NCBI RefSeq assembly: GCF_018420025.1
Contig: NZ_JAEDAM010000053.1
Location: forward strand, 1-7,081
Source: Candidatus Vampirococcus lugosii
GTDB lineage: Bacteria; Patescibacteriota; Gracilibacteria; Absconditabacterales; Absconditicoccaceae
Reading direction: 5' to 3'
Length of the DNA: 7,081 nt
Shown here in pieces: positions 1 through 7,081 of the stretch (positions within the stretch are counted from its first letter, which is position 1; every line of letters starts with the position of its first letter). The translations under genes were made by a program, and so were the position numbers. The notes below the pieces were generated by a model. The model had not been told where the DNA came from, made no database searches, and was given only the letters and a program-made list of their open reading frames with translations.

Positions 1-90
1 CTACAGAGTGGTGTAAGAAGGGAATTAGCGACTGGGGTAAAGTCGTAACAAGGTATCCCTACGGGAACGTGGGGATGGACCATCTTTAAA
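1..90 (+). rRNA. rrs: 16S (SSU) rRNA, 3'-terminal ~90 nt; the 5' part lies outside the window
   Basis: Positions 40-55, AAGTCGTAACAAGGTA, are the universally conserved target region of the 1492R primer. Positions 31-55 match E. coli GACTGGGGTGAAGTCGTAACAAGGTA with one mismatch. Positions 55-76 fold as helix 45 (atccctacg / GGAA loop / cgtggggat; 9 bp including one G.U). The tail ggaccatctttaaa (77-90) aligns with GGAUCACCUCCUUA. The mature 3' end is placed by alignment from memory and is uncertain by a few nt. Confidence 0.9.
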
Positions 91-181
91 GTAAAGATAT
101 AAGTAGAGAATAAAATAAACAAAGGTTTATATACCATACTTCTTTTAATTATTATTGCATTGATATGAATATAAAATGTTT

Positions 182-216
182 AAAAAAAGCTAATTATTAA
201 TTTAATTAGTTTTTTT
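182..216 (+). terminator. possible weak intrinsic terminator downstream of the 16S gene
   Basis: An A-tract (182-188) is followed by the hairpin gctaatta (189-196) / taattagt (203-210) with a ~6-nt loop, then TTTTTT (211-216). The stem is almost all A-T with a single G-C pair, so it is thermodynamically weak. Such structures arise easily in AT-rich DNA. Confidence 0.25.
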
Positions 217-310
217 GTTGATTTTTTTAATGAAATTATTATATATACTATATATTATACTTAAGTTTTGTTTAAGTATAAATTTATTTATATTTATTAC
301 CAAAAAATAT

Positions 311-436
311 ATGAAAAATATGTGAGATAGATTTAATTTGTTAGGTGCAATAACTAAAGAAAAAAGTAAAAAGTTTTTTTCTCTTTTATTAGCTTTTCTA
401 TTAGTTTTTTCCAATATGACAAATTTTATTTATGCT
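311..436 (+). other. predicted Sec-type signal peptide (n-region KEKSKK, h-region FFSLLLAFLLVF, candidate cleavage IYA/IV)
   Basis: A basic stretch is followed by a 12-residue hydrophobic core and a small-residue x-A site (gct at 434-436). The n-region is long if ATG 311 is the true start. This is a by-eye prediction only. Confidence 0.5.
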
Positions 437-3400
437 ATTGTTCCTTCTGAGTATTTTCAATTTATAAAATCATCAAATCAAGACAATGTTGATTGAAATT
501 CTTTTGTAATAAAAAATTACACAGATATACAATGAACTTCTTCAGATTTATTTACTTGATTTGATAGTAATGATTGGGATGAATTTGATTGAAAAGATAT
601 ATCAGTTGATATAAGTTCAGTATGAACTTGAGAAATACATTGATTTACTTTGTGATCATGAGATAATGCAAACATAACTAATTTTGTATGAGTGCAAGAT
701 CAAGCTGATTTAGTCAGTAAAATAGAATCTTTACAATTTGCAAAAAATCTTACTGATTATTATAAACTTTTCTTAGATAATAATTTTTATTCTTTGAGAA
801 TTAATTTTGAAGATTGATATACTTTGGATTTTGTTGATCTAATTGGTTCAATGTCAATTGAAGAAGCATTAAGTTGACAAATTAAACAAATCTCTTGAGA
901 ATGAAATTATTGAACTTGAATAACAGAAAATATTGATTCATTTATAAGTAGTATAAGTGAAAATATTGAATATACAAGTTTTGATAATATTTTGGAAACA
1001 GAGACGATTTTATGAGAAGTTTTTGAACAAGTTGATGATCTTTATAGTATTTTTTCATTTTGATATCAAGATATTAAATTAGATGATAATAAATTTGTTA
1101 TCAAAAATCTTACTGATACAAAAGATGGAGATAATTTTAAAGAATTTTTTGTAAATACTGATCAATTGGATAGTAAGGATTTTGGTGCTGGTAAAAGTGT
1201 ATTGGTAGATTTAGAAAATGAAAAAGATTGAAAAATTTATTGATTTACAGTTTGAACTTGATCTACTGCAAATGAATTGATTTTTACTTGAAGTGGTGTT
1301 GATAGTATTGAAACTTTGATATGACAAATAGAATCATTGCAATTTGCAAAAAATCTTACTGATTATAATAATATTTTCTTGGAGAAAGAATTTTTGTCTT
1401 TGAAAATGAATTTTGAATGAGATAAAAGTATTGAATTGATAGATTTGATAGGATTGGATTATGCCTCTTGAGCTTTGGCTCAACTAGATACAGATCTTAA
1501 AACTTTTTTAACCAGTAATACTGAACCAGGGCTTTGAGAAACTATTTGAGATTGAGAATATTGAGATGCATCTGATACTCAAAATACTATTGATACTTTA
1601 ATTTGAATGATTGAAGATAATATAGATTTTTGAGATAGTGCAGATTATACATTAAATCAAAATGTTATTTTGTGAGAAATATTTAAAAATGCTTATCAGT
1701 GGAAAGATTGAGATTTAAGTGAAAATGATATAGTAGTTAAAAATCTTACTGATACAAAAATTTGAGAAGATTTTAAAGAAATTTTTGTAGATTCATCAAG
1801 TTTTGAAAACAAAAATTTTGGTTCTGGTGAAAATGTATTGGTAGATTTAGAAAAATTAGATAATTGAGAAATACATTGATTTACTTTGTGATCATGAGAT
1901 ACAGCAAATACAATTAATTTTGTATGACTTGAAAGTCAAGAAGATTTATTGAATGCAATAAAATCTTTTGAGTTCTTTAAAAATTATACTAATTATGGTG
2001 ATATATTTTTAGATAATGATTTTTTAACTGTAAAAATTAATTTTGATGATTGAGGAAGTTTATTATTAGTTGATTTAATTTCTTATAATGCAATTAATGC
2101 AATTGATGCAACAGTAAAAGATTATATAGAAAATAATTCAGCAAATGGAAAAGATTCTTTTGATGTTTCTATTGCAAATCTTGAAACTTTAAAGAAAATA
2201 GATTGAGTTTGAGATTCTACAGCAAACGATATTATTGATTTTTTTGGTTCAGGAGCTAATTTACCAGTTTGTAATATTTTGGATTTAGGTGAAGATTTAT
2301 GGGAAAATCCTTGAGTTACATATCAAAACTTGAAAAATACTTCTCATATCTCTATAAATAAATCTTGTGATTTATGATGAAGTTCTATTTGAGAAATAAT
2401 TATTTGAATGCTTACGGCAAATATAGAATATAATCAAATTGATTGAGATTGAGAAACTGATTGACAAATAATTTTGTGAGTTGTTGCTGATTATGTTGAA
2501 TCAGAAGAAGAATTAGTAGTAGATCCTCTTGAGGAATTAGTTGTTCAATATAATTTAATTTGATCTTGATTAAACCTTGTTTGAATTCAAAATAATTTTG
2601 ATCAGGTTTCAACTTGAAATATTCAAAATTTTACAGGTTTATCTTTCTCAAAAGAAAGTTTATGAAAAATTGAATTCAATACTTGATTTAATTTAACAAA
2701 TACTTGAACTATTGATTTTTTAAGTGGTTTAAACGATCAATTAGCAATGTCAGGTTGATATATACAATTTGATGCTGATGATTCTGTTTTTGATGTGTCA
2801 GCTACATTATCTATGAATTTGGAATGAGAATATGCAACTTGATTTGTAGAATATGCTAGTGGATGGGATTGAGAAGATTTTGATTGGATAAGTGTAAAAG
2901 ATAGTGATTGAAATGAAATTGAAGATTTATCAAATAAAATATCAAATTTAACTTGATCTTGTGATAATTGAGATTGTACAGTAAGTTTTGATACTGATTG
3001 ATTTACTTCTTTTGATCTGAATTTTGAAGTTTTGGAAGAAGTTGTTGACCCAGAAGAATATGAAATAGAATTTAATGTAAGTCCAGAAAATGCACAAATA
3101 GAAATTGATTGAAATACATATTCTCATAATCAAACTTGAAGTTTTGCTGATTGAAGCTATAATTATACTGCAAGTTTAACTTGATTTGTAACTAAAACTT
3201 GAACTTTTGAAGTAAGTTGAACTTGAAAAACTGTTAGTATTGAATTAGAAGAAGAAGTTGTTGACCCAGAAGAATATGAAATAGAATTTAATTTAAGTCC
3301 AGAAAATGCACAAATAGAAATTGATTGACAAACATATTTAAATAATTGAACATGAAGTTTTGTTAACTGAACTTATGAATATACTGCAAGTTTAACTTGA

Positions 3401-6400
3401 TTTGTAACTAAAACTTGAACTTTTGAAGTAAGTTGAACTTGAAAAACTGTTAGTATTGAATTAATTCAACCTTATTGAGAAGCTGAAATTAATAATATTT
3501 GTTTCTATTCTTATACAGATACTAATGAACAAGAATATTGTGATAAAAATATATTTAAAGATTCATTTAATGTTTATTTAACTTGAAATATTAATTGAAA
3601 TTCATTGTGAATAGCTAGTTGATATGATGATGAAGATTATAGTTTTGTATCAAAATATATTGATTCTCAATGAGAAGAAATAGAACTTGATTGATATCTT
3701 TATGAAAATAGAGATTGAGATATTGAGATAAGTTTTTATCTTGAAACATATAATCATGAAGAATGAGAAAATTTTGATATTAGTTCTTGAACTTGAACAT
3801 TAGAAATTAAATTCTTTTACAAAGAAGAAGAAGTAATATTATTGGAACAAGAAATGTTCTATGATAATGAAAAACCTCTTGTTACAGATATTTCTTCTGT
3901 AGATAATAATGATTGAACTTTTACTTTAACTGCTACTTGAACAGATAATTATTGAATAGAAAATTTTTATTGGTATGAAAATAATCCTGATAATTGTCAA
4001 AATTATCAAAATTATCAAATTAAATCTATATCTATGGAATGAGGAACTAATTGATTTTGTTGATATGATAGTTTTGCTACTTGATCAACAATAACAATAA
4101 CTCCTGATAGAGAAGAATATTTTGTAAAAACTTATGATTATGTTTGAAATTATTGAACTTGAAATATTAAATTAGATTTACAAGTTTCAAAACCTGAAAA
4201 TTTAATATCAACTTGAATTACTAATAATTGATTTACTATTGAATGGAATGAAGTAGAATGAGTTGATTCTTATGAAGTATTATTAAATTGAGAATTTAAA
4301 GAAAATGTATGAACTTGAACAAGTTATACTTTTGAAGGTTTAAGTTGATCTAAAAATTATTATCCATGAGTAAAAGCTGTTGAATGAGAAATAAAATCTG
4401 CTATTAATCAAATAAAAGTAAGAACATTATGAAATGAATTAAATTTGAATGTAAATGTAGATGAAAAATGTTTAGCTCCTGAATGAGAAAATCAAGAATG
4501 GTTATGGGTAAGACTTACAAAATCTTGATCTACAAATTGGAGAGATAATAAATATTCTTCAAGAAGTTTAACACAAACTTGAATAAATATTTTATTTGAA
4601 GATATTTCTTGAGATTATAGTTATAGAATTTCTACATGAAGATGTGGTGTCGTTAATTGAAGTTTAAATATTGATGGTGTTACTACTGAAACTGTAGAAA
4701 TATGAGTTGGTAAATGGATACAAACTATTATTAGAGAAAATACTTATACTTGAAGTATAGTAAGTAATTATAATTTACAATTAATAGATACTAATAGTAC
4801 TAAATCAACATTTGTTAGTTCTCAAACATGAACATTATTAAATTTATGAAATAATGATTATACAGTTAATATTAGAGATTGACAAACTTGGGCTAATAAA
4901 AATGTTGTTTGAATATATAGTTGAGCTAGTGAACTTTCTACATGAAATATATTAGAAAATTCTGATTATTCTACTTGAGATACTATAACAGTAGTAGTTC
5001 AAGAATGAAAAGTTATAAAATGAACTACAAATAGAGATTGATATATAAGTTTATATAATTCTACAACAAATTCTTATATAGCTTGAACAAGTATTAGAAA
5101 TTGAGAATTTGTGATGATGTGAATTCCAGCTTGAGAATATACTATAAATGCTAGGTCAAATAATTATAATTATAAAAATTATTCAAATTGAATTACAATA
5201 AATTGAGATTGAAATATTATTACTCATAATATTAATTTTGAACAAAAGGATTTAGATATATCATGAGAGTTTTCTAAAGATTATGCTTTAGAATGAAAAA
5301 ATATCTTTTTAAAACTTAATCCAAGTGAAAATAATTCTTGAAATATTAAATTTTTATCAGGTGATGATATAATAAATACTGCAAGTTATAGAGTTTTGGA
5401 TGATAATTGAGATTTGGTTAGTACTTGAACTATTGATTTGACAAATGGAGAAGATATAAATAATTTAAATTGAAATAATATTACAGTTAATTTACTATTA
5501 AAAGATAGTATTGATACTGATATTAATTTCTTAAGTATTGAGTTTGAAGCTTGAGATAATAAATTAGAATTATCTATTCCTATTGTTAGAATAGAATATA
5601 ATTCTCCTGCTACTGTAATTGAATGAGAAAAATTTAATGTAAGAGGTTTTGCAAGTCCTAATTCATTTATACATATATTACACAAATGAAATCTTATTTG
5701 AACTTGATCTACAAATAGAAATTGATGATTTAGTATAGAATCAAAAATAGAACAAGCTTGAACTTGAACAATTTTGATAAAAGATATTACTAATGATGTC
5801 TTTTCTGAAACATCAGATATTGAAGTTTGATCAAAAGATTGAGATTTACCTATATTAGAAAATTATGAAATAAAGGTAAATAATAATTCTAGAATAGATG
5901 AAGAAAATTGAAAAATACAATATTTTTCTGTTTGGGCTAATTTTAATCTTACAAGTGCTGATAAAGTAGAAGTTTTGGCTGATATAACAAATAATCCAGA
6001 TGAAGTAAATTATTATGTATGATGAGAAAAATTGACAAATTGAGTATTTGCGAAATGAACATATATTTGATATTGAACTAAAGATGTAGTTATTGAATAT
6101 ATTAAAAATAATAAAAAATATACTCAAACTATAGCAAAAATGGTAGTTTTGATTGATCCTGCTTGATTTGTATACAATAAAGATACTAATGAAAAAATTG
6201 CTTGAATAGAAGCAAAATTATATGAATTAGTTGATGAAAATTGAGATAGAATTGAAGATAAAACTTGAGTTGATGAAAGTTTATTATTATCTTGAGCATA
6301 TAGAGCTTGAAATTGATATAATAAAGATGATATAATAAATGATATAGATGTATGTAAATGATGATGAACTGCTTATCCATGTGAATGGCAAGAGTATGAT

Positions 6401-7081
6401 TCAAGTTGATATTGAGAAGAACCAAATCCACAAATTACAGATGAAGAATGAAAATATGCTTGGATGACTCCTACAGGTTTCTATTATGTAGATTTTACTT
6501 CAAATGATAATGATAAATATGATAATTTTGAATCAAATGTAGTATTTATACCACCAGAAGTAAGTGATCTTGATATATGAATTTATTACAAAGATTGATT
6601 TGAAGTTACTGAAAGTATTGATAATTGAGAAAGAAAAAGAACTTGGAATTGAACAGATAATAAATGGAATGATTGGGAATATACTTGTAATAGTGGTTAT
6701 GAAATAGATTGAAATGAATGTAAAAAATCTTCTTCATGAGGATGATGAGGATGATGAGGATGATGAGGATGATGAACTATATGGACTACACCAAGTGATG
6801 AAAATGATGAACAAGAGGAAAATAATGAAAGTGATGAACAAGAGGAAAATAATGAAAGTGATGAACAAGATGAAAATAATGAAAGTGATGAACAAGAGGA
6901 AACTGATGAAAATGATGAACAAGAGGAAACTGATGAAAATGATGAACAAGAGGAAACTGATGAAAATGATGAACAAGATAAAAATAATGAAAATGATGAA
7001 CAAGAGGAAAATAATGGACAAAAAAAATTATCGGAATATATAAAAGAACTTGAAGAACAGATACAATCTGAACAAAAATTG
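311..7081 (+). CDS. giant secreted multi-domain surface protein (putative adhesin), 3'-partial, at least 2,257 codons; requires translation table 25 (TGA=Gly)
   Basis: Hand translation of frame 2 (codons starting at 311, 314, ...) finds no TAA or TAG up to the last complete codon, 7079-7081. By hand count there are ~190 in-frame TGA, ~35 GGN and 19 TGG codons. Recognisable PEGA, FN3 and prealbumin-like motifs appear only in this frame. The N-terminus reads MKNMGDRFNLLGAITKEKSKKFFSLLLAFLLVFSNMTNFIYA/IVPSE. The start is uncertain: the frame is open from 206, and ATG 230, ATG 320, TTG 338 and ATG 416 are alternatives. ATG 311 gives the best n-h-c signal-peptide layout. Confidence 0.85.
497..1087 (+). 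repeat. N-terminal module copy 1 (~197 aa) of an unassigned ~200-aa repeat
   Basis: Shared landmarks, in order: FVIKNYTDIQG; GEIHGFTLGSGDNANITNFVG; IESLQFAKNLTDY; LRINFEDG; VDLIG; ILGEVFEQ. A 38-nt exact DNA match links 628-665 to 1864-1901. A 27-nt exact match links 734-760 to 1340-1366. Confidence 0.8.
1088..1726 (+). repeat. N-terminal module copy 2 (~213 aa)
   Basis: Landmarks: FVIKNLTDTKDGDNFKEFFV; FGAGKSVLVDLE; GKIYGFTVGTGSTANELIFTG; IESLQFAKNLTDY; LKMNFEGD; IDLIG; ILGEIFKN. These are collinear with copies 1 and 3. A 21-nt exact match links 1103-1123 to 1739-1759. Confidence 0.8.
1727..2330 (+). repeat. N-terminal module copy 3 (~200 aa; the 3' boundary is approximate and the tail is diverged)
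   Basis: Landmarks: VVKNLTDTKIGEDFKEIFV; FGSGENVLVDLE; GEIHGFTLGSGDTANTINFVG; IKSFEFFKNYTNY; VKINFDDGG; VDLIS. Similarity to copies 1 and 2 fades after ~2100. Confidence 0.7.
3035..3250 (+). repeat. PEGA-like domain, tandem copy 1 (72 aa)
   Basis: The sequence EEVVDPEEYEIEFNVSPENAQIEIDGNTYSHNQTGSFADGSYNYTASLTGFVTKTGTFEVSGTGKTVSIEL fits the PEGA pattern (s.PegA.v.vDG ... l..G.y.y.v...Gy ... v.v..g....v.v.L), with PENA in place of PEGA. By hand alignment it is ~92% identical in DNA to 3251-3466. Confidence 0.6.
3251..3466 (+). repeat. PEGA-like domain, tandem copy 2 (72 aa)
   Basis: The sequence is EEVVDPEEYEIEFNLSPENAQIEIDGQTYLNNGTGSFVNGTYEYTASLTGFVTKTGTFEVSGTGKTVSIEL. The offset from copy 1 is exactly 216 nt: gttgttgaccc occurs at 3041 and 3257, and ctgttagtattgaatta at 3231 and 3447. 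Confidence 0.6.
3875..4186 (+). other. possible bacterial Ig-like (Big_7-like) beta-sandwich domain
   Basis: The sequence reads PLVTDISSVDNNDGTFTLTATGTDNYGIENFYWYENN ... STITITPDREEYFVKTYDYVGNYGTGNIKLDL. It resembles the pattern 't.tatA.D..gi..v.fy.n ... a.a.D..Gn...s..i.l.v'. It contains one Cys pair (3995-3997 and 4058-4060). This is weak, by-eye evidence only. Confidence 0.3.
4193..4426 (+). other. fibronectin type III (FN3)-like domain
   Basis: The sequence PENLISTGITNNGFTIEWNEVEGVDSYEVLLNGEFKENVGTGTSYTFEGLSGSKNYYPGVKAVEGEIKSAINQIKVRT fits the classic FN3 layout: P.nl...t..s.ti.W..v.g...Y.v..ng......t.t.ytf.gL.....Y...V.A......S..i.v.T. It has the conserved Trp (tgg 4244-4246) and Tyr residues. 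Confidence 0.6.
4984..5242 (+). other. carboxypeptidase-regulatory-like / prealbumin-fold domain (tentative)
   Basis: The sequence is ITVVVQEGKVIKGTTNRDGYISLYNSTTNSYIAGTSIRNGEFVMMGIPAGEYTINARSNNYNYKNYSNGITINGDGNIITHNINFE. The core NGEFvmmgIPAGEYtInars.nY matches the family hallmark '(d)G.F.l..lp.G.Y.l.v...gY'. Confidence 0.4.
5585..5785 (+). other. possible Ig-like beta-sandwich domain
   Basis: The sequence VRIEYNSPATVIEGEKFNVRGFASPNSFIHILHKGNLIGTGSTNRNGGFSIESKIEQAGTGTILIKD resembles the common bacterial surface-protein pattern 'v.G.a.p.s.v.v...g..iGt..t...G.fsi.......G...i.v.d'. By eye only. Confidence 0.3.
6143..6577 (+). other. Cna-B / SdrD-B / prealbumin-like fold domain with an inserted Cys-pair loop (tentative)
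   Basis: It opens with VVLIDPAGFVYNKDTNEKIAGIEAKLYEL (family pattern 'IDPsG.VYd..t..Pi.Ga.v.L'). It closes with NPQITDEEGKYAWMTPTGFYYVDF ... VVFIPPEVSDLDI (pattern 'np..Td..G.y.f..p.G.Y.v'). The insert includes DVCKGGGTAYPCEW. Confidence 0.4.
6737..6775 (+). repeat. 13-codon poly-glycine run written as TGA/GGA, (TGA GGA TGA) x4 plus one TGA
   Basis: In-frame codons: tga gga tga tga gga tga tga gga tga tga gga tga tga. That is 9 TGA and 4 GGA, flanked by KKSSS and TIWTTPS. The run has 9-nt DNA periodicity. Confidence 0.8.
6794..7018 (+). repeat. tandem 27-nt (9-aa) acidic repeat, 8 full copies plus a partial leader; consensus [N/S]DEQEE[N/T][N/D]E
   Basis: Units start at 6803, 6830, 6857, 6884, 6911, 6938, 6965 and 6992. 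They encode NDEQEENNE, SDEQEENNE, SDEQDENNE, SDEQEETDE, NDEQEETDE, NDEQEETDE, NDEQDKNNE and NDEQEENNG. Units 5 and 6 are identical in DNA. Confidence 0.9.

What the first reader, a model, noticed from the sequence alone, without database searches (positions are those of the whole stretch)
311..7081. UGA read as glycine (translation table 25): a 2,257-codon ORF hidden behind ~190 in-frame TGA codons
Seen in sequence:
- Frame 2 has no TAA or TAG across the whole remaining window, although the DNA is extremely AT-rich. The standard-code track finds no + strand ORF longer than 109 aa.
- By hand count there are ~190 TGA (~8.4% of codons), ~35 GGN and 19 TGG.
- TGG alone gives a normal ~0.8% Trp. 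Reading TGA as Trp (table 4) would give ~9% Trp, which is implausible. Reading it as Gly gives ~10% Gly.
- TGA sits at canonical Gly positions: PEGA 'IDG' (tga 3110-3112 and 3326-3328), FN3 'VEGVDSY' (tga 4259-4261), 'IPAGEY' (tga 5132-5134) and 'TDEEGKY' (tga 6449-6451).
- At 6737-6775 TGA alternates with the ordinary Gly codon GGA in a single homopolymeric run.
Established knowledge: table 25 is the code of Gracilibacteria (BD1-5/GN02) and Absconditabacteria (SR1).
Inference: this contig comes from such a lineage, and TGA is its dominant Gly codon (~85% of Gly codons here). Standard gene callers would annotate the region as gene-free or as a pseudogene.
Basis: partly seen in the sequence, partly recalled or inferred. 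Interest (0 to 1): 0.75.

Follow-up and report, generated by a model that had tools for sequence, protein, structure and literature searches.

The report
Giant gene written in code 25
This is one very long surface-protein gene from an uncultured, extremely AT-rich SR1/Absconditabacteria-like bacterium that reads the usual stop codon UGA as an amino acid (almost certainly glycine). That genetic code is already well documented, so the finding is correct but not new.

Summary
Frame +2 has no TAA or TAG from 206 to the window end (2,292 codons; P about 1e-77). From ATG 311 it holds 190 TGA, 35 GGN, 19 TGG and no CGN codon.

UGA is therefore a sense codon. Trp is excluded: it would make 9.3% Trp, and every Pfam match disappears under that reading. 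Gly is the best-supported reading:
- It gives the highest summed Pfam score of all 20 residues (66 bits; Asp 51; Trp 0).
- PEGA, CarboxypepD_reg and Big_6 matches appear only with Gly.
- Within internal repeats, TGA aligns with GGN but never with TGG.

All these matches are weak, and fn3 actually scores higher with polar residues than with Gly.

The strongest support comes from lineage. Window 1-90 is a 16S rRNA 3' end. Its helix 45 and altered tail are identical to those of Absconditabacterales MAGs. In these relatives TGA aligns with Gly at 14 of 22 positions in solved homologues and never with Trp. They also have the SR1-specific 23S-5S-16S gene order, which explains why a protein gene follows the 16S here.

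The gene encodes an orphan secreted protein of at least 2,257 aa, built of repeats. The code is already known; the gene and organism are new members of a known kind. Interest is low to moderate.

The parts
1..90 (+). 3' end of a bacterial 16S rRNA gene (model positions 1439-1533). Helix 45 reads GGTATCCCTACGGGAACGTGGGGATGG. The tail reads GGACCATCTTTAAA instead of GATCACCTCCTT, so the anti-Shine-Dalgarno CCUCC is lost.
   Evidence: Rfam RF00177 at 51 bits, E=1.4e-12. Helix 45 is identical in L002-L005 and L007.
91..310 (+). AT-rich spacer between the 16S gene and the ORF. It has only weak promoter-like hexamers (126-155 and 230-258), no GC-rich terminator and no Shine-Dalgarno-like motif before ATG 311.
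   Evidence: Promoter and terminator scan; sequence as printed.
311..7081 (+). One open reading frame of at least 2,257 codons that runs off the 3' end of the window. It contains 190 in-frame TGA sense codons and encodes a giant secreted or surface protein.
   Evidence: The start at ATG 311 is inferred from the signal-peptide-like N-terminus; in-frame ATGs at 230 and 320 are alternatives.
311..436 (+). N-terminal signal peptide or membrane anchor (aa 1-42). It has a basic stretch KEKSKK followed by the hydrophobic FFSLLLAFLLVFS. This is the only strongly hydrophobic segment of the protein.
   Evidence: Hydropathy scan.
497..2308 (+). Three diverged copies (39-41% identity) of a repeat of about 180-200 aa: aa 63-240, 260-460 and 472-666. 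No family match was found. TGA columns are conserved between copies. Copy 3 carries a weak helix-hairpin-helix-like Gly-Val-Gly motif (aa 622-644) in which both Gly are TGA.
   Evidence: Self-BLAST and MAFFT. HHH match of 16.3 bits with the Gly translation only. No homologues found with the repeat profile.
3035..3463 (+). Tandem duplication (216-nt period, 2.0 copies, 92% identical) that encodes two PEGA-like beta-sandwich modules.
   Evidence: TRF. PEGA at 17.3 bits and CarboxypepD_reg at 16.6 bits, both below the curated cut-offs and seen only with TGA=Gly.
4187..4390 (+). Fibronectin type III-like domain (aa 1293-1360) containing 10 TGA codons.
   Evidence: Pfam fn3 at 24.1 bits with TGA masked and 23.8-24.6 bits with Gly. 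It is lost with Trp or Tyr and scores higher with polar residues.
5003..5203 (+). Carboxypeptidase-regulatory-like / EMC7-type beta-sandwich (aa 1565-1631).
   Evidence: EMC7_beta-sandw at 22.8 bits and CarboxypepD_reg at 20.8 bits with Gly. Gly is the best of the 20 residues for both.
5615..5812 (+). Bacterial Ig-like (Big_6-like) domain (aa 1769-1834).
   Evidence: Big_6 at 18.6 bits, seen only with TGA=Gly.
6736..6775 (+). Perfect 9-nt tandem repeat (4.4 copies), read in frame from 6737 as TGA GGA TGA TGA GGA and so on for 13 codons. Under code 25 it encodes a 13-residue poly-Gly linker.
   Evidence: TRF, 100% matches; codon listing.
6798..7016 (+). 27-nt tandem repeat (8.1 copies, 93% matches). 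It encodes an acidic low-complexity tail of DEQEENNES / DEQEETDEN units.
   Evidence: TRF; translation.

Best explanation
The window comes from an uncultured, very AT-rich (24% G+C) bacterium of the Absconditabacteria (SR1) type, or a close code-25 relative. In this lineage UGA is read as glycine rather than as a stop, presumably by a tRNA-Gly with anticodon UCA and with release factor 2 absent. That decoding step is inferred from the literature and was not seen here. AT mutation pressure has made TGA the main Gly codon in this gene (190 of 225, 84%).

The DNA holds the last 90 nt of the 16S rRNA gene. In SR1 this is the last gene of a 23S-5S-16S operon. A 220-nt spacer follows, and then a single gene of at least 2,257 codons.

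The gene encodes a secreted or surface-anchored giant protein. In order, it has:
- an N-terminal signal/anchor segment;
- three novel repeats of about 200 aa;
- two PEGA-like modules;
- fn3-like, carboxypeptidase-regulatory-like and Ig-like beta-sandwich modules;
- a poly-Gly linker;
- an acidic repeat tail.

The protein most likely acts in cell-surface architecture or attachment to a host cell. This function is inferred by analogy with the giant surface proteins of Vampirococcus.
For: **Shown in the window.**
- The frame is open for 2,292 codons despite 190 TGA; P about 1e-77.
- Third-position G+C is 6% and codon periodicity is strong.
- Replacing TGA with each of the 20 residues over 943 aa (90 TGA) gives summed Pfam scores of Gly 66, Asp 51, Ala 48.8, and 0 for Trp and Tyr. 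CarboxypepD_reg and Big_6 appear only with Gly. So does PEGA, which was tested against Gly, masked X and eight other residues.
- In internal repeats TGA pairs with TGA 44 times, with GGN 3 times and with TGG never. Relative to composition in the three N-terminal repeats, GGN is the most enriched non-identical partner (about 3.4-fold).

**Shown for the lineage.**
- Window 1-90 is a 16S 3' end.
- Among 185,579 species genomes, 6 matched a degenerate pattern requiring the altered CTTT tail. The 4 with the window's exact helix 45 are three Absconditabacterales MAGs and one MAG labelled Bacillota that carries the same features.
- In these relatives, with TGA masked, TGA aligns with Gly of solved homologues at 3/3 (RmlB GxxGxxG), 7/9 (Pif1-like Walker A and other motifs) and 4/10 (TilS SGGxDS) positions. 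It never aligns with Trp.
- The relatives have the 23S-5S-16S order, published as unique to SR1 (PMC4192840).

**From the literature.**
- UGA=Gly in Absconditabacteria and Gracilibacteria, whose G+C ranges from 0.21 to 0.53 (PMC8629427).
- Proteomic support for UGA=Gly (PMC4032931).
- Giant surface proteins with fibronectin and other adhesion domains in Vampirococcus (PMC8080830).
Against: - All domain matches under the Gly reading are below Pfam's curated cut-offs.
- fn3 is the best-supported domain, and it scores about 10 bits higher with Asp, Glu, Gln, Asn or Ser than with Gly.
- No homologue of the protein exists in the 5.8-billion-protein collection or among PDB sequences. No orthologue-based check of the TGA columns was therefore possible.
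- The lineage assignment rests on 90 nt of 16S.
- Neither tRNA(UCA) nor prfB status could be examined.
- Low Gly without TGA is partly what AT pressure would produce anyway, because Ala, Pro and Arg are depleted too.
- The adhesion function is by analogy only.
Confidence: 0.9

Rival explanations
1. UGA is read as tryptophan (translation table 4), as in Mollicutes, several insect endosymbionts and many mitochondria, which are also very AT-rich.
For: G+C is 24%. The TGA:TGG ratio of 10:1 resembles what AT pressure produces in table-4 genomes. The 16S tail lacks the anti-Shine-Dalgarno sequence, as many organelle rRNAs do.
Against: - Trp would be 9.3% of a 2,257-aa protein while Gly stayed at 1.55%.
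- With Trp at TGA, no Pfam family is found at all, not even fn3, which survives masking of TGA.
- TGA never aligns with TGG in the internal repeats.
- The 16S helix 45 and tail match Absconditabacterales. In those relatives TGA aligns with Gly at 14 of 22 positions and with Trp at none.
Confidence: 0.02
2. UGA is a sense codon for some other, generic polar residue (such as Asp, Glu, Ser or Asn). That would be a bacterial code not yet described.
For: fn3 is the only domain detected without assuming a residue. It scores 31-34 bits with Asp, Glu, Gln, Asn, Ser, Pro, Lys, Arg or Thr, against 24.6 bits with Gly. In internal repeats Asp (11) and Ser (9) are the commonest non-identical partners of TGA.
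Against: - Generic polar residues score well in any weakly conserved surface column, so the fn3 result mainly shows that TGA lies in loops.
- Summed over all domains Gly is best by 15 bits. CarboxypepD_reg and Big_6 are Gly-only among all 20 residues, and PEGA is Gly-only among the ten variants tested.
- After correcting for composition, GGN is the most enriched partner.
- Relatives with the same 16S signature put TGA at invariant Gly positions.
- In the 2021 genome-wide screen, every known bacterial UGA reassignment was to Gly or Trp (PMC8629427).
Confidence: 0.04
3. The region is not a functional gene. It would be a decayed pseudogene or non-coding DNA in a standard-code genome, in which TGA really is a stop.
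For: Under table 11 no + strand ORF exceeds 109 aa. No homologue of the conceptual protein was found.
Against: - Decay would introduce TAA and TAG as well. In 24% G+C DNA these occur at 7.5% of codons in the other + frames, yet there are none in 2,292 codons (P about 1e-77).
- Codon periodicity is strong.
- A signal peptide, conserved internal repeats and beta-sandwich domain matches are all in this one frame.
Confidence: 0.005

Closest known systems
Genetic code 25 (UGA = Gly) of Absconditabacteria/SR1 and Gracilibacteria/BD1-5 (Campbell 2013, Rinke 2013 and Hanke 2014, as cited in PMC8629427, PMC8080830 and PMC4032931)
   Same: - UGA is an abundant in-frame sense codon in a low-G+C, uncultured bacterium.
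- Gly is the best-fitting residue.
- TAA and TAG are the only codons absent from the frame.
- The 16S helix 45 and tail match Absconditabacterales MAGs, in which TGA sits at invariant Gly positions.
- A protein gene directly follows the 16S gene, as expected from the SR1 23S-5S-16S operon.
   Different: - At 24% G+C, the window lies near the low end of the published range (0.21-0.53).
- TGA makes up 84% of Gly codons in this gene. Relatives show the same tendency to varying degrees (L005: 23 TGA against 2 GGN; L003: 32 against 36).
- The 16S tail has one further change (CCATCTTT against CCACCTTT).
- The decoding machinery (tRNA-Gly UCA, loss of RF2) was not observable here.
Giant membrane or surface proteins of Vampirococcus lugosii (Absconditabacteria), 1,392-4,163 aa (PMC8080830)
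   Same: - Very long, at least 2,257 aa.
- A single N-terminal hydrophobic segment.
- Modular beta-sandwich and adhesion-type domains, including fibronectin type III.
- Same code and the same general lineage.
   Different: - No sequence homology to any protein could be shown.
- The three N-terminal 200-aa repeats match no family.
- The 3' end of the gene lies outside the window.
- The function is inferred by analogy only.
Genetic code 4 (UGA = Trp) of Mycoplasmatales/Entomoplasmatales and insect endosymbionts
   Same: The genome is AT-rich, and TGA is far more frequent than TGG.
   Different: Reading TGA as Trp gives 9.3% Trp and abolishes all domain matches. The 16S features are those of SR1, not of Mollicutes.

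Membership tests
Translation table 25 (UGA = Gly) | UGA occurs in frame inside genes, i.e. it is not a stop | tested here: met
   There are 190 in-frame TGA in a frame free of TAA/TAG for 2,292 codons, P about 1e-77.
Translation table 25 (UGA = Gly) | UGA positions correspond to glycine in conserved protein families | tested here: inconclusive
   In the window, Gly gives the best summed Pfam score (66 bits; Asp 51; Trp 0). CarboxypepD_reg and Big_6 are Gly-only among all 20 residues, and PEGA is Gly-only among ten tested variants. However, every hit is below its cut-off, and fn3 prefers polar residues. In relatives with the same 16S signature the feature is clearly met: 14 of 22 TGA align with Gly and none with Trp.
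Translation table 25 (UGA = Gly) | tRNA with anticodon UCA carrying glycine identity elements | not testable with these tools
   No tRNA is present in the window or in the five related loci. The source genome was not retrievable.
Translation table 25 (UGA = Gly) | Absence of release factor 2 (prfB) | not testable with these tools
   Only 7 kb of the genome is available, and it holds one protein gene.
Translation table 25 (UGA = Gly) | Genes terminate only at UAA or UAG | not testable with these tools
   The single ORF runs off the window end, so no stop codon is observed.
Absconditabacteria (SR1) lineage | 16S rRNA affiliation | tested here: inconclusive
   Only the last 90 nt are present. Helix 45 is identical, and identity is 85-92% over 72-87 aligned nt, to three Absconditabacterales MAGs, to L005 and to L007. 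The Chloroflexi hits that share the tail give 54/71 and 54/70. A full-length gene is needed for placement, and Gracilibacteria were not sampled.
Absconditabacteria (SR1) lineage | rRNA operon order 23S-5S-16S (PMC4192840) | tested here: inconclusive
   The window shows a 16S 3' end followed by a protein gene, with no tRNA or 23S within 7 kb. This is as expected if 16S is last in the operon. The upstream part is outside the window. The order is directly seen in relatives L002, L003, L005 and L007.
PEGA domain (PF08308) | Score at or above Pfam's gathering threshold (20.8 bits) | tested here: not met
   The score is 17.3 bits over two stretches, and only with TGA=Gly. The modules are PEGA-like; family membership is not shown.
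Fibronectin type III (PF00041) | Score at or above Pfam's gathering threshold (25 bits) | tested here: inconclusive
   The score is 23.8-24.6 bits with Gly and 24.1 bits with TGA masked, just under the cut-off of 25. The match covers profile positions 1-72 of 84.

The most novel reading that the evidence does not exclude
UGA in this organism encodes a residue other than Gly or Trp, which would be an undescribed bacterial code. The only opening for this is the fn3 domain, which is detected without assuming any residue and scores about 10 bits higher with Asp, Glu, Gln, Asn or Ser than with Gly.

A milder novel reading is more likely (about 0.3) but much less interesting. Under it, the window represents an unsampled, extremely AT-rich SR1-like lineage at the end-state of code-25 evolution. 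TGA has almost replaced GGN, CGN codons are gone, and the anti-Shine-Dalgarno tail has eroded further. The gene would also carry an orphan giant surface protein with a new 200-aa repeat family.
Probability: 0.04. Interest if true: 0.85.

Novelty: new member of a known kind. Interest (0 to 1): 0.25.

Why it matters
- **Practical.** Standard (table 11) gene callers would see no gene in 6.8 kb that is in fact one of the largest genes of this organism. Contigs like this one are also a known source of false "stop-codon reassignment" calls when they contaminate bins of other phyla (PMC8629427). One related MAG found here is labelled Bacillota although it carries SR1 features.
- **Biological.** The gene adds an orphan giant surface protein to the set thought to mediate attachment of SR1-type episymbionts or predators to their hosts. 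It also shows how far AT pressure can push UGA as the main Gly codon.
- **What it does not do.** It reveals no new code and no new mechanism.

Tried and rejected
- **Protein homology searches found nothing.** The searches were:
  - the whole Gly translation, aa 1045-2133, and a profile of the three N-terminal repeats, each against 5.8 billion proteins;
  - PDB sequences with TGA masked;
  - NCBIfam.
- **Two tools were not usable.** Structure prediction carries the same input restriction and was therefore not attempted, so no AlphaFold or fold search was done.
- **The source contig was not found.**
  - The exact 16S 48-mer was absent from genome contigs.
  - The metagenome scan returned only L007, a different organism at 39% G+C.
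  - A table-11 ORF look-up found nothing.
  - An ORF 48-mer was absent from viral contigs.
- **The neighbour and spacing test had no power.** It asked whether GGN shares the Gly-x-Gly spacing seen for TGA. Mixed TGA-x-GGN pairs were not enriched (p=0.87).
- **Conservation of TGA columns across the repeats was not discriminating.** TGA is conserved in 39% of aligned pairs, similar to Asp, Lys and Val.
- **The L005 ORF could not be identified.** It has 23 TGA codons but matched nothing in PDB or Pfam.
- **No homology to neighbouring ORFs in relatives.** The window protein shows no similarity to the ORFs that follow the 16S gene in the related loci.
- **Two observations were dismissed as artefacts.**
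  - The Rfam sR5 snoRNA hit at 6909-6961 (22.6 bits, below the gathering score of 40) is an artefact of ATGATGA/CTGA strings in the acidic repeat.
  - The high TGA count in frame +1 (198) comes from GAT-GAA and AAT-GAT codon junctions in this Asp/Asn/Glu-rich protein.
Full report
**1.

The window is 24.2% G+C. Frame +2 has nine TAA/TAG codons in its first 205 nt and none afterwards, so it stays open for 2,292 codons up to the window end. In the two other + frames TAA+TAG make up 7.5% of codons. The chance of such an open run is therefore about 1e-77. No other frame exceeds 246 codons free of TAA/TAG.

From ATG 311 the frame has 2,257 codons. They include 190 TGA, 35 GGN, 19 TGG and no CGN codon. 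TGA is evenly spread at 17-24 per 250 codons. Third positions are 6% G+C, and codon periodicity is strong. With TGA read as a stop, the longest + strand ORF is 109 aa and lies in another frame.

**2. What surrounds the ORF**

Its 3' tail reads GGACCAUCUUUAAA where the consensus is GAUCACCUCCUU, so the anti-Shine-Dalgarno CCUCC is missing.

A 220-nt AT-rich spacer follows. It has no tRNA, no GC-rich terminator and only weak promoter-like matches. The ORF comes next. No convincing gene lies on the minus strand.

**3. Which residue does UGA encode? Evidence from the window alone**

*Trp.* Trp is excluded. It would give 9.3% Trp. With Trp at TGA no Pfam family is found at all, whereas fn3 is found even when TGA is masked with X.

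*Substitution scan.* I replaced TGA by each of the 20 residues over 943 aa containing 90 TGA codons and scanned Pfam. The table gives bit scores for the families whose scores were compared across residues.

| Family | Gly | Other residues |
|---|---|---|
| fn3 | 24.6 | Glu 34.2, Gln 34.2, Asp 33.0, Asn 32.8, Ser 32.8, Pro 32.6, Lys 32.3; hydrophobic residues 12-22; Trp and Tyr none |
| EMC7-type beta-sandwich | 22.8 | Ala 19.6, Asp 18.0 |
| CarboxypepD_reg | 20.8 | none |
| Big_6 | 18.6 | none |

Summing the non-overlapping domains gives Gly 66, Asp 51, Ala 48.8 and Glu 48, with Trp and Tyr at 0.

*PEGA-like modules.* On the two tandem PEGA-like modules, PEGA (17.3 bits) and CarboxypepD_reg (16.6 bits) are reported only with Gly. 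They are absent with X, Trp, Asp, Ser, Glu, Ala, Asn, Thr and Pro.

*Helix-hairpin-helix motif.* A weak helix-hairpin-helix match (16.3 bits), whose Gly-Val-Gly hairpin is written TGA-GTT-TGA, appears only with Gly.

*Internal repeats.* TGA aligns with TGA 44 times, with GGN 3 times and never with TGG. After correcting for composition in the three N-terminal repeats, GGN is the most enriched non-identical partner, at about 3.4-fold.

*Caveats.*
- All Gly-dependent hits are below Pfam's curated cut-offs.
- The fn3 columns occupied by TGA behave as generic surface or loop positions, not as canonical Gly positions.
- The argument that Gly would be impossibly low at 1.55% is weakened because Ala, Pro and Arg are depleted as well.
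- A neighbour and spacing test had no power.

From the window alone, UGA is certainly a sense codon and certainly not Trp. Gly is the best reading, but this evidence does not prove it.

**4. Evidence from the lineage**

The exact 16S 48-mer is absent from one genome per 185,579 species. A degenerate pattern that frees the covarying helix-45 pairs but keeps the unusual CTTT tail found six genomes.
- Three are Candidatus Absconditabacterales MAGs (L002-L004) and one is labelled Bacillota (L005). All four have exactly the window's helix 45.
- The other two are Chloroflexi with a different helix 45.

Identity to the window over the aligned 16S stretch is 85-92% for L002-L005 and L007. For the Chloroflexi it is 54/71 and 54/70.

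A metagenome scan with the window's exact tail found one contig, L007 (39% G+C), which is not the source.

All five relatives contain long TAA/TAG-free ORFs full of TGA. I masked TGA with X and aligned three of these ORFs to solved structures:

| Locus | Protein | TGA aligned with Gly |
|---|---|---|
| L002 | dTDP-glucose 4,6-dehydratase | 3 of 3, two of them in the GxxGxxG motif |
| L004 | Pif1-like helicase | 7 of 9, including the Walker A motif |
| L007 | TilS | 4 of 10, including both Gly of SGGxDS |

In total 14 of 22 TGA positions align with Gly and none with Trp.

Rfam shows that these relatives carry their rRNA genes in the order 23S-5S-16S. That arrangement was published as unprecedented and specific to SR1 (PMC4192840). 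It explains why a protein gene, rather than tRNAs and 23S, follows the 16S 3' end in the window.

The literature establishes several relevant points:
- UGA=Gly in Absconditabacteria and Gracilibacteria, across G+C of 0.21-0.53 (PMC8629427).
- Proteomic confirmation of UGA=Gly (PMC4032931).
- Arg encoded almost only by AGA, with CGA/CGG reassigned to Trp, in Absconditabacteria (PMC8629427). The window has no CGN codon at all, so that second reassignment cannot be tested here.

**5. What the gene encodes**

The protein has a single strongly hydrophobic segment, at the N-terminus after a basic stretch. It is either a signal peptide or an anchor. After it come, in order:
- three diverged copies (39-41% identity) of a repeat of about 200 aa with no family match;
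- a recent 216-nt tandem duplication encoding two PEGA-like modules;
- fn3-like, carboxypeptidase-regulatory-like and Ig-like beta-sandwich modules;
- a 13-residue poly-Gly linker written as a perfect 9-nt repeat;
- an acidic tail made of 8.1 copies of a 27-nt repeat.

The gene continues beyond the window. No homologue was found in the 5.8-billion-protein collection, PDB sequences or NCBIfam.

By analogy with the giant surface proteins of Vampirococcus (1,392-4,163 aa, with fibronectin and other adhesion domains; PMC8080830), the most likely role is surface architecture or attachment to a host cell. This is inference only.

**6. Rival explanations**

- *Table 4 (UGA=Trp).* Rejected on composition, domain scores, repeat alignments and lineage.
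- *A pseudogene in a standard-code genome.* Rejected because TAA and TAG are completely absent from the frame.
- *A new code with UGA as another polar residue.* The fn3 result leaves a small opening. It is contradicted by the Gly-only domains, by the relatives and by what is known of bacterial UGA reassignments.

**7. Verdict**

The phenomenon (code 25) is already known. The gene and the organism are new members of known kinds.

The value is mainly practical. It lies in correct gene calling and in avoiding mis-binning: L005 is labelled Bacillota but carries SR1 features. Interest is low to moderate.

Noticed in passing
window 1-90: The window starts with the 3' end of a 16S rRNA gene. Its tail reads GGACCAUCUUUAAA in place of GAUCACCUCCUU, so the anti-Shine-Dalgarno CCUCC is lost. 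Absconditabacterales relatives read GGACCACCUUUCU, and L007 shares the window's extra C-to-U change. No Shine-Dalgarno-like motif precedes ATG 311.
   Followed up: partly
L002 3789-8000, L003 1-2255, L005 2265-6952, L007 954-5641: All four relatives with full rRNA genes carry them in the order 23S-5S-16S on one strand. This is the operon order reported as unique to SR1 (PMC4192840). In the window, the 16S 3' end followed directly by a protein gene fits this order.
   Followed up: yes
L005 (JBMOLK010000224.1, labelled 'MAG: Bacillota bacterium'): This contig has the SR1-type helix 45 and tail and the 23S-5S-16S order. Its ORFs carry 15 and 23 in-frame TGA against 4 and 2 GGN. It is probably an Absconditabacteria-type (code 25) contig that was mislabelled or mis-binned. 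Its ORFs matched nothing in PDB or Pfam.
   Followed up: partly
window 311-7081: No CGN codon occurs in 2,257 codons; Arg is written only as AGA (23) and AGG (1). Absconditabacteria are reported to read CGA/CGG as Trp (PMC8629427). The window cannot test this, but the total absence of CGN fits codon loss under AT pressure.
   Followed up: partly
window 6736-6775 and 6798-7016: There is a perfect 9-nt repeat (4.4 copies, poly-Gly) and a 27-nt repeat (8.1 copies, 93% matches, acidic DEQEENNES-type units). Both lengths are multiples of three. They could therefore vary in copy number by slippage without breaking the frame, changing linker or tail length.
   Followed up: no
window 3035-3463: A 216-nt tandem duplication (92% identical) of the PEGA-like module indicates recent domain amplification inside the gene.
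   Followed up: partly
window 497-2308: Three copies of a repeat of about 200 aa (conserved core g-EIH-g-FTL-g-S-g-D...LQFAKNLTDY...INFEDg...VDLIG, where g is TGA) have no match in Pfam, NCBIfam, PDB sequences or the 5.8-billion-protein collection. This may be an undescribed domain family.
   Followed up: partly
window 6909-6961: An Rfam sub-threshold hit to the archaeal C/D-box sRNA sR5 (22.6 bits against a gathering score of 40, E=0.058) lies inside the acidic 27-nt repeat. It is almost certainly an artefact of repeated ATGATGA and CTGA strings.
   Followed up: no
window frame +1: Frame +1 also contains 198 TGA, alongside 184 TAA/TAG. These arise from NNT-GAN codon junctions (GAT-GAA, AAT-GAT) of the Asp/Asn/Glu-rich protein in frame +2. 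They are not evidence of a second coding frame.
   Followed up: yes
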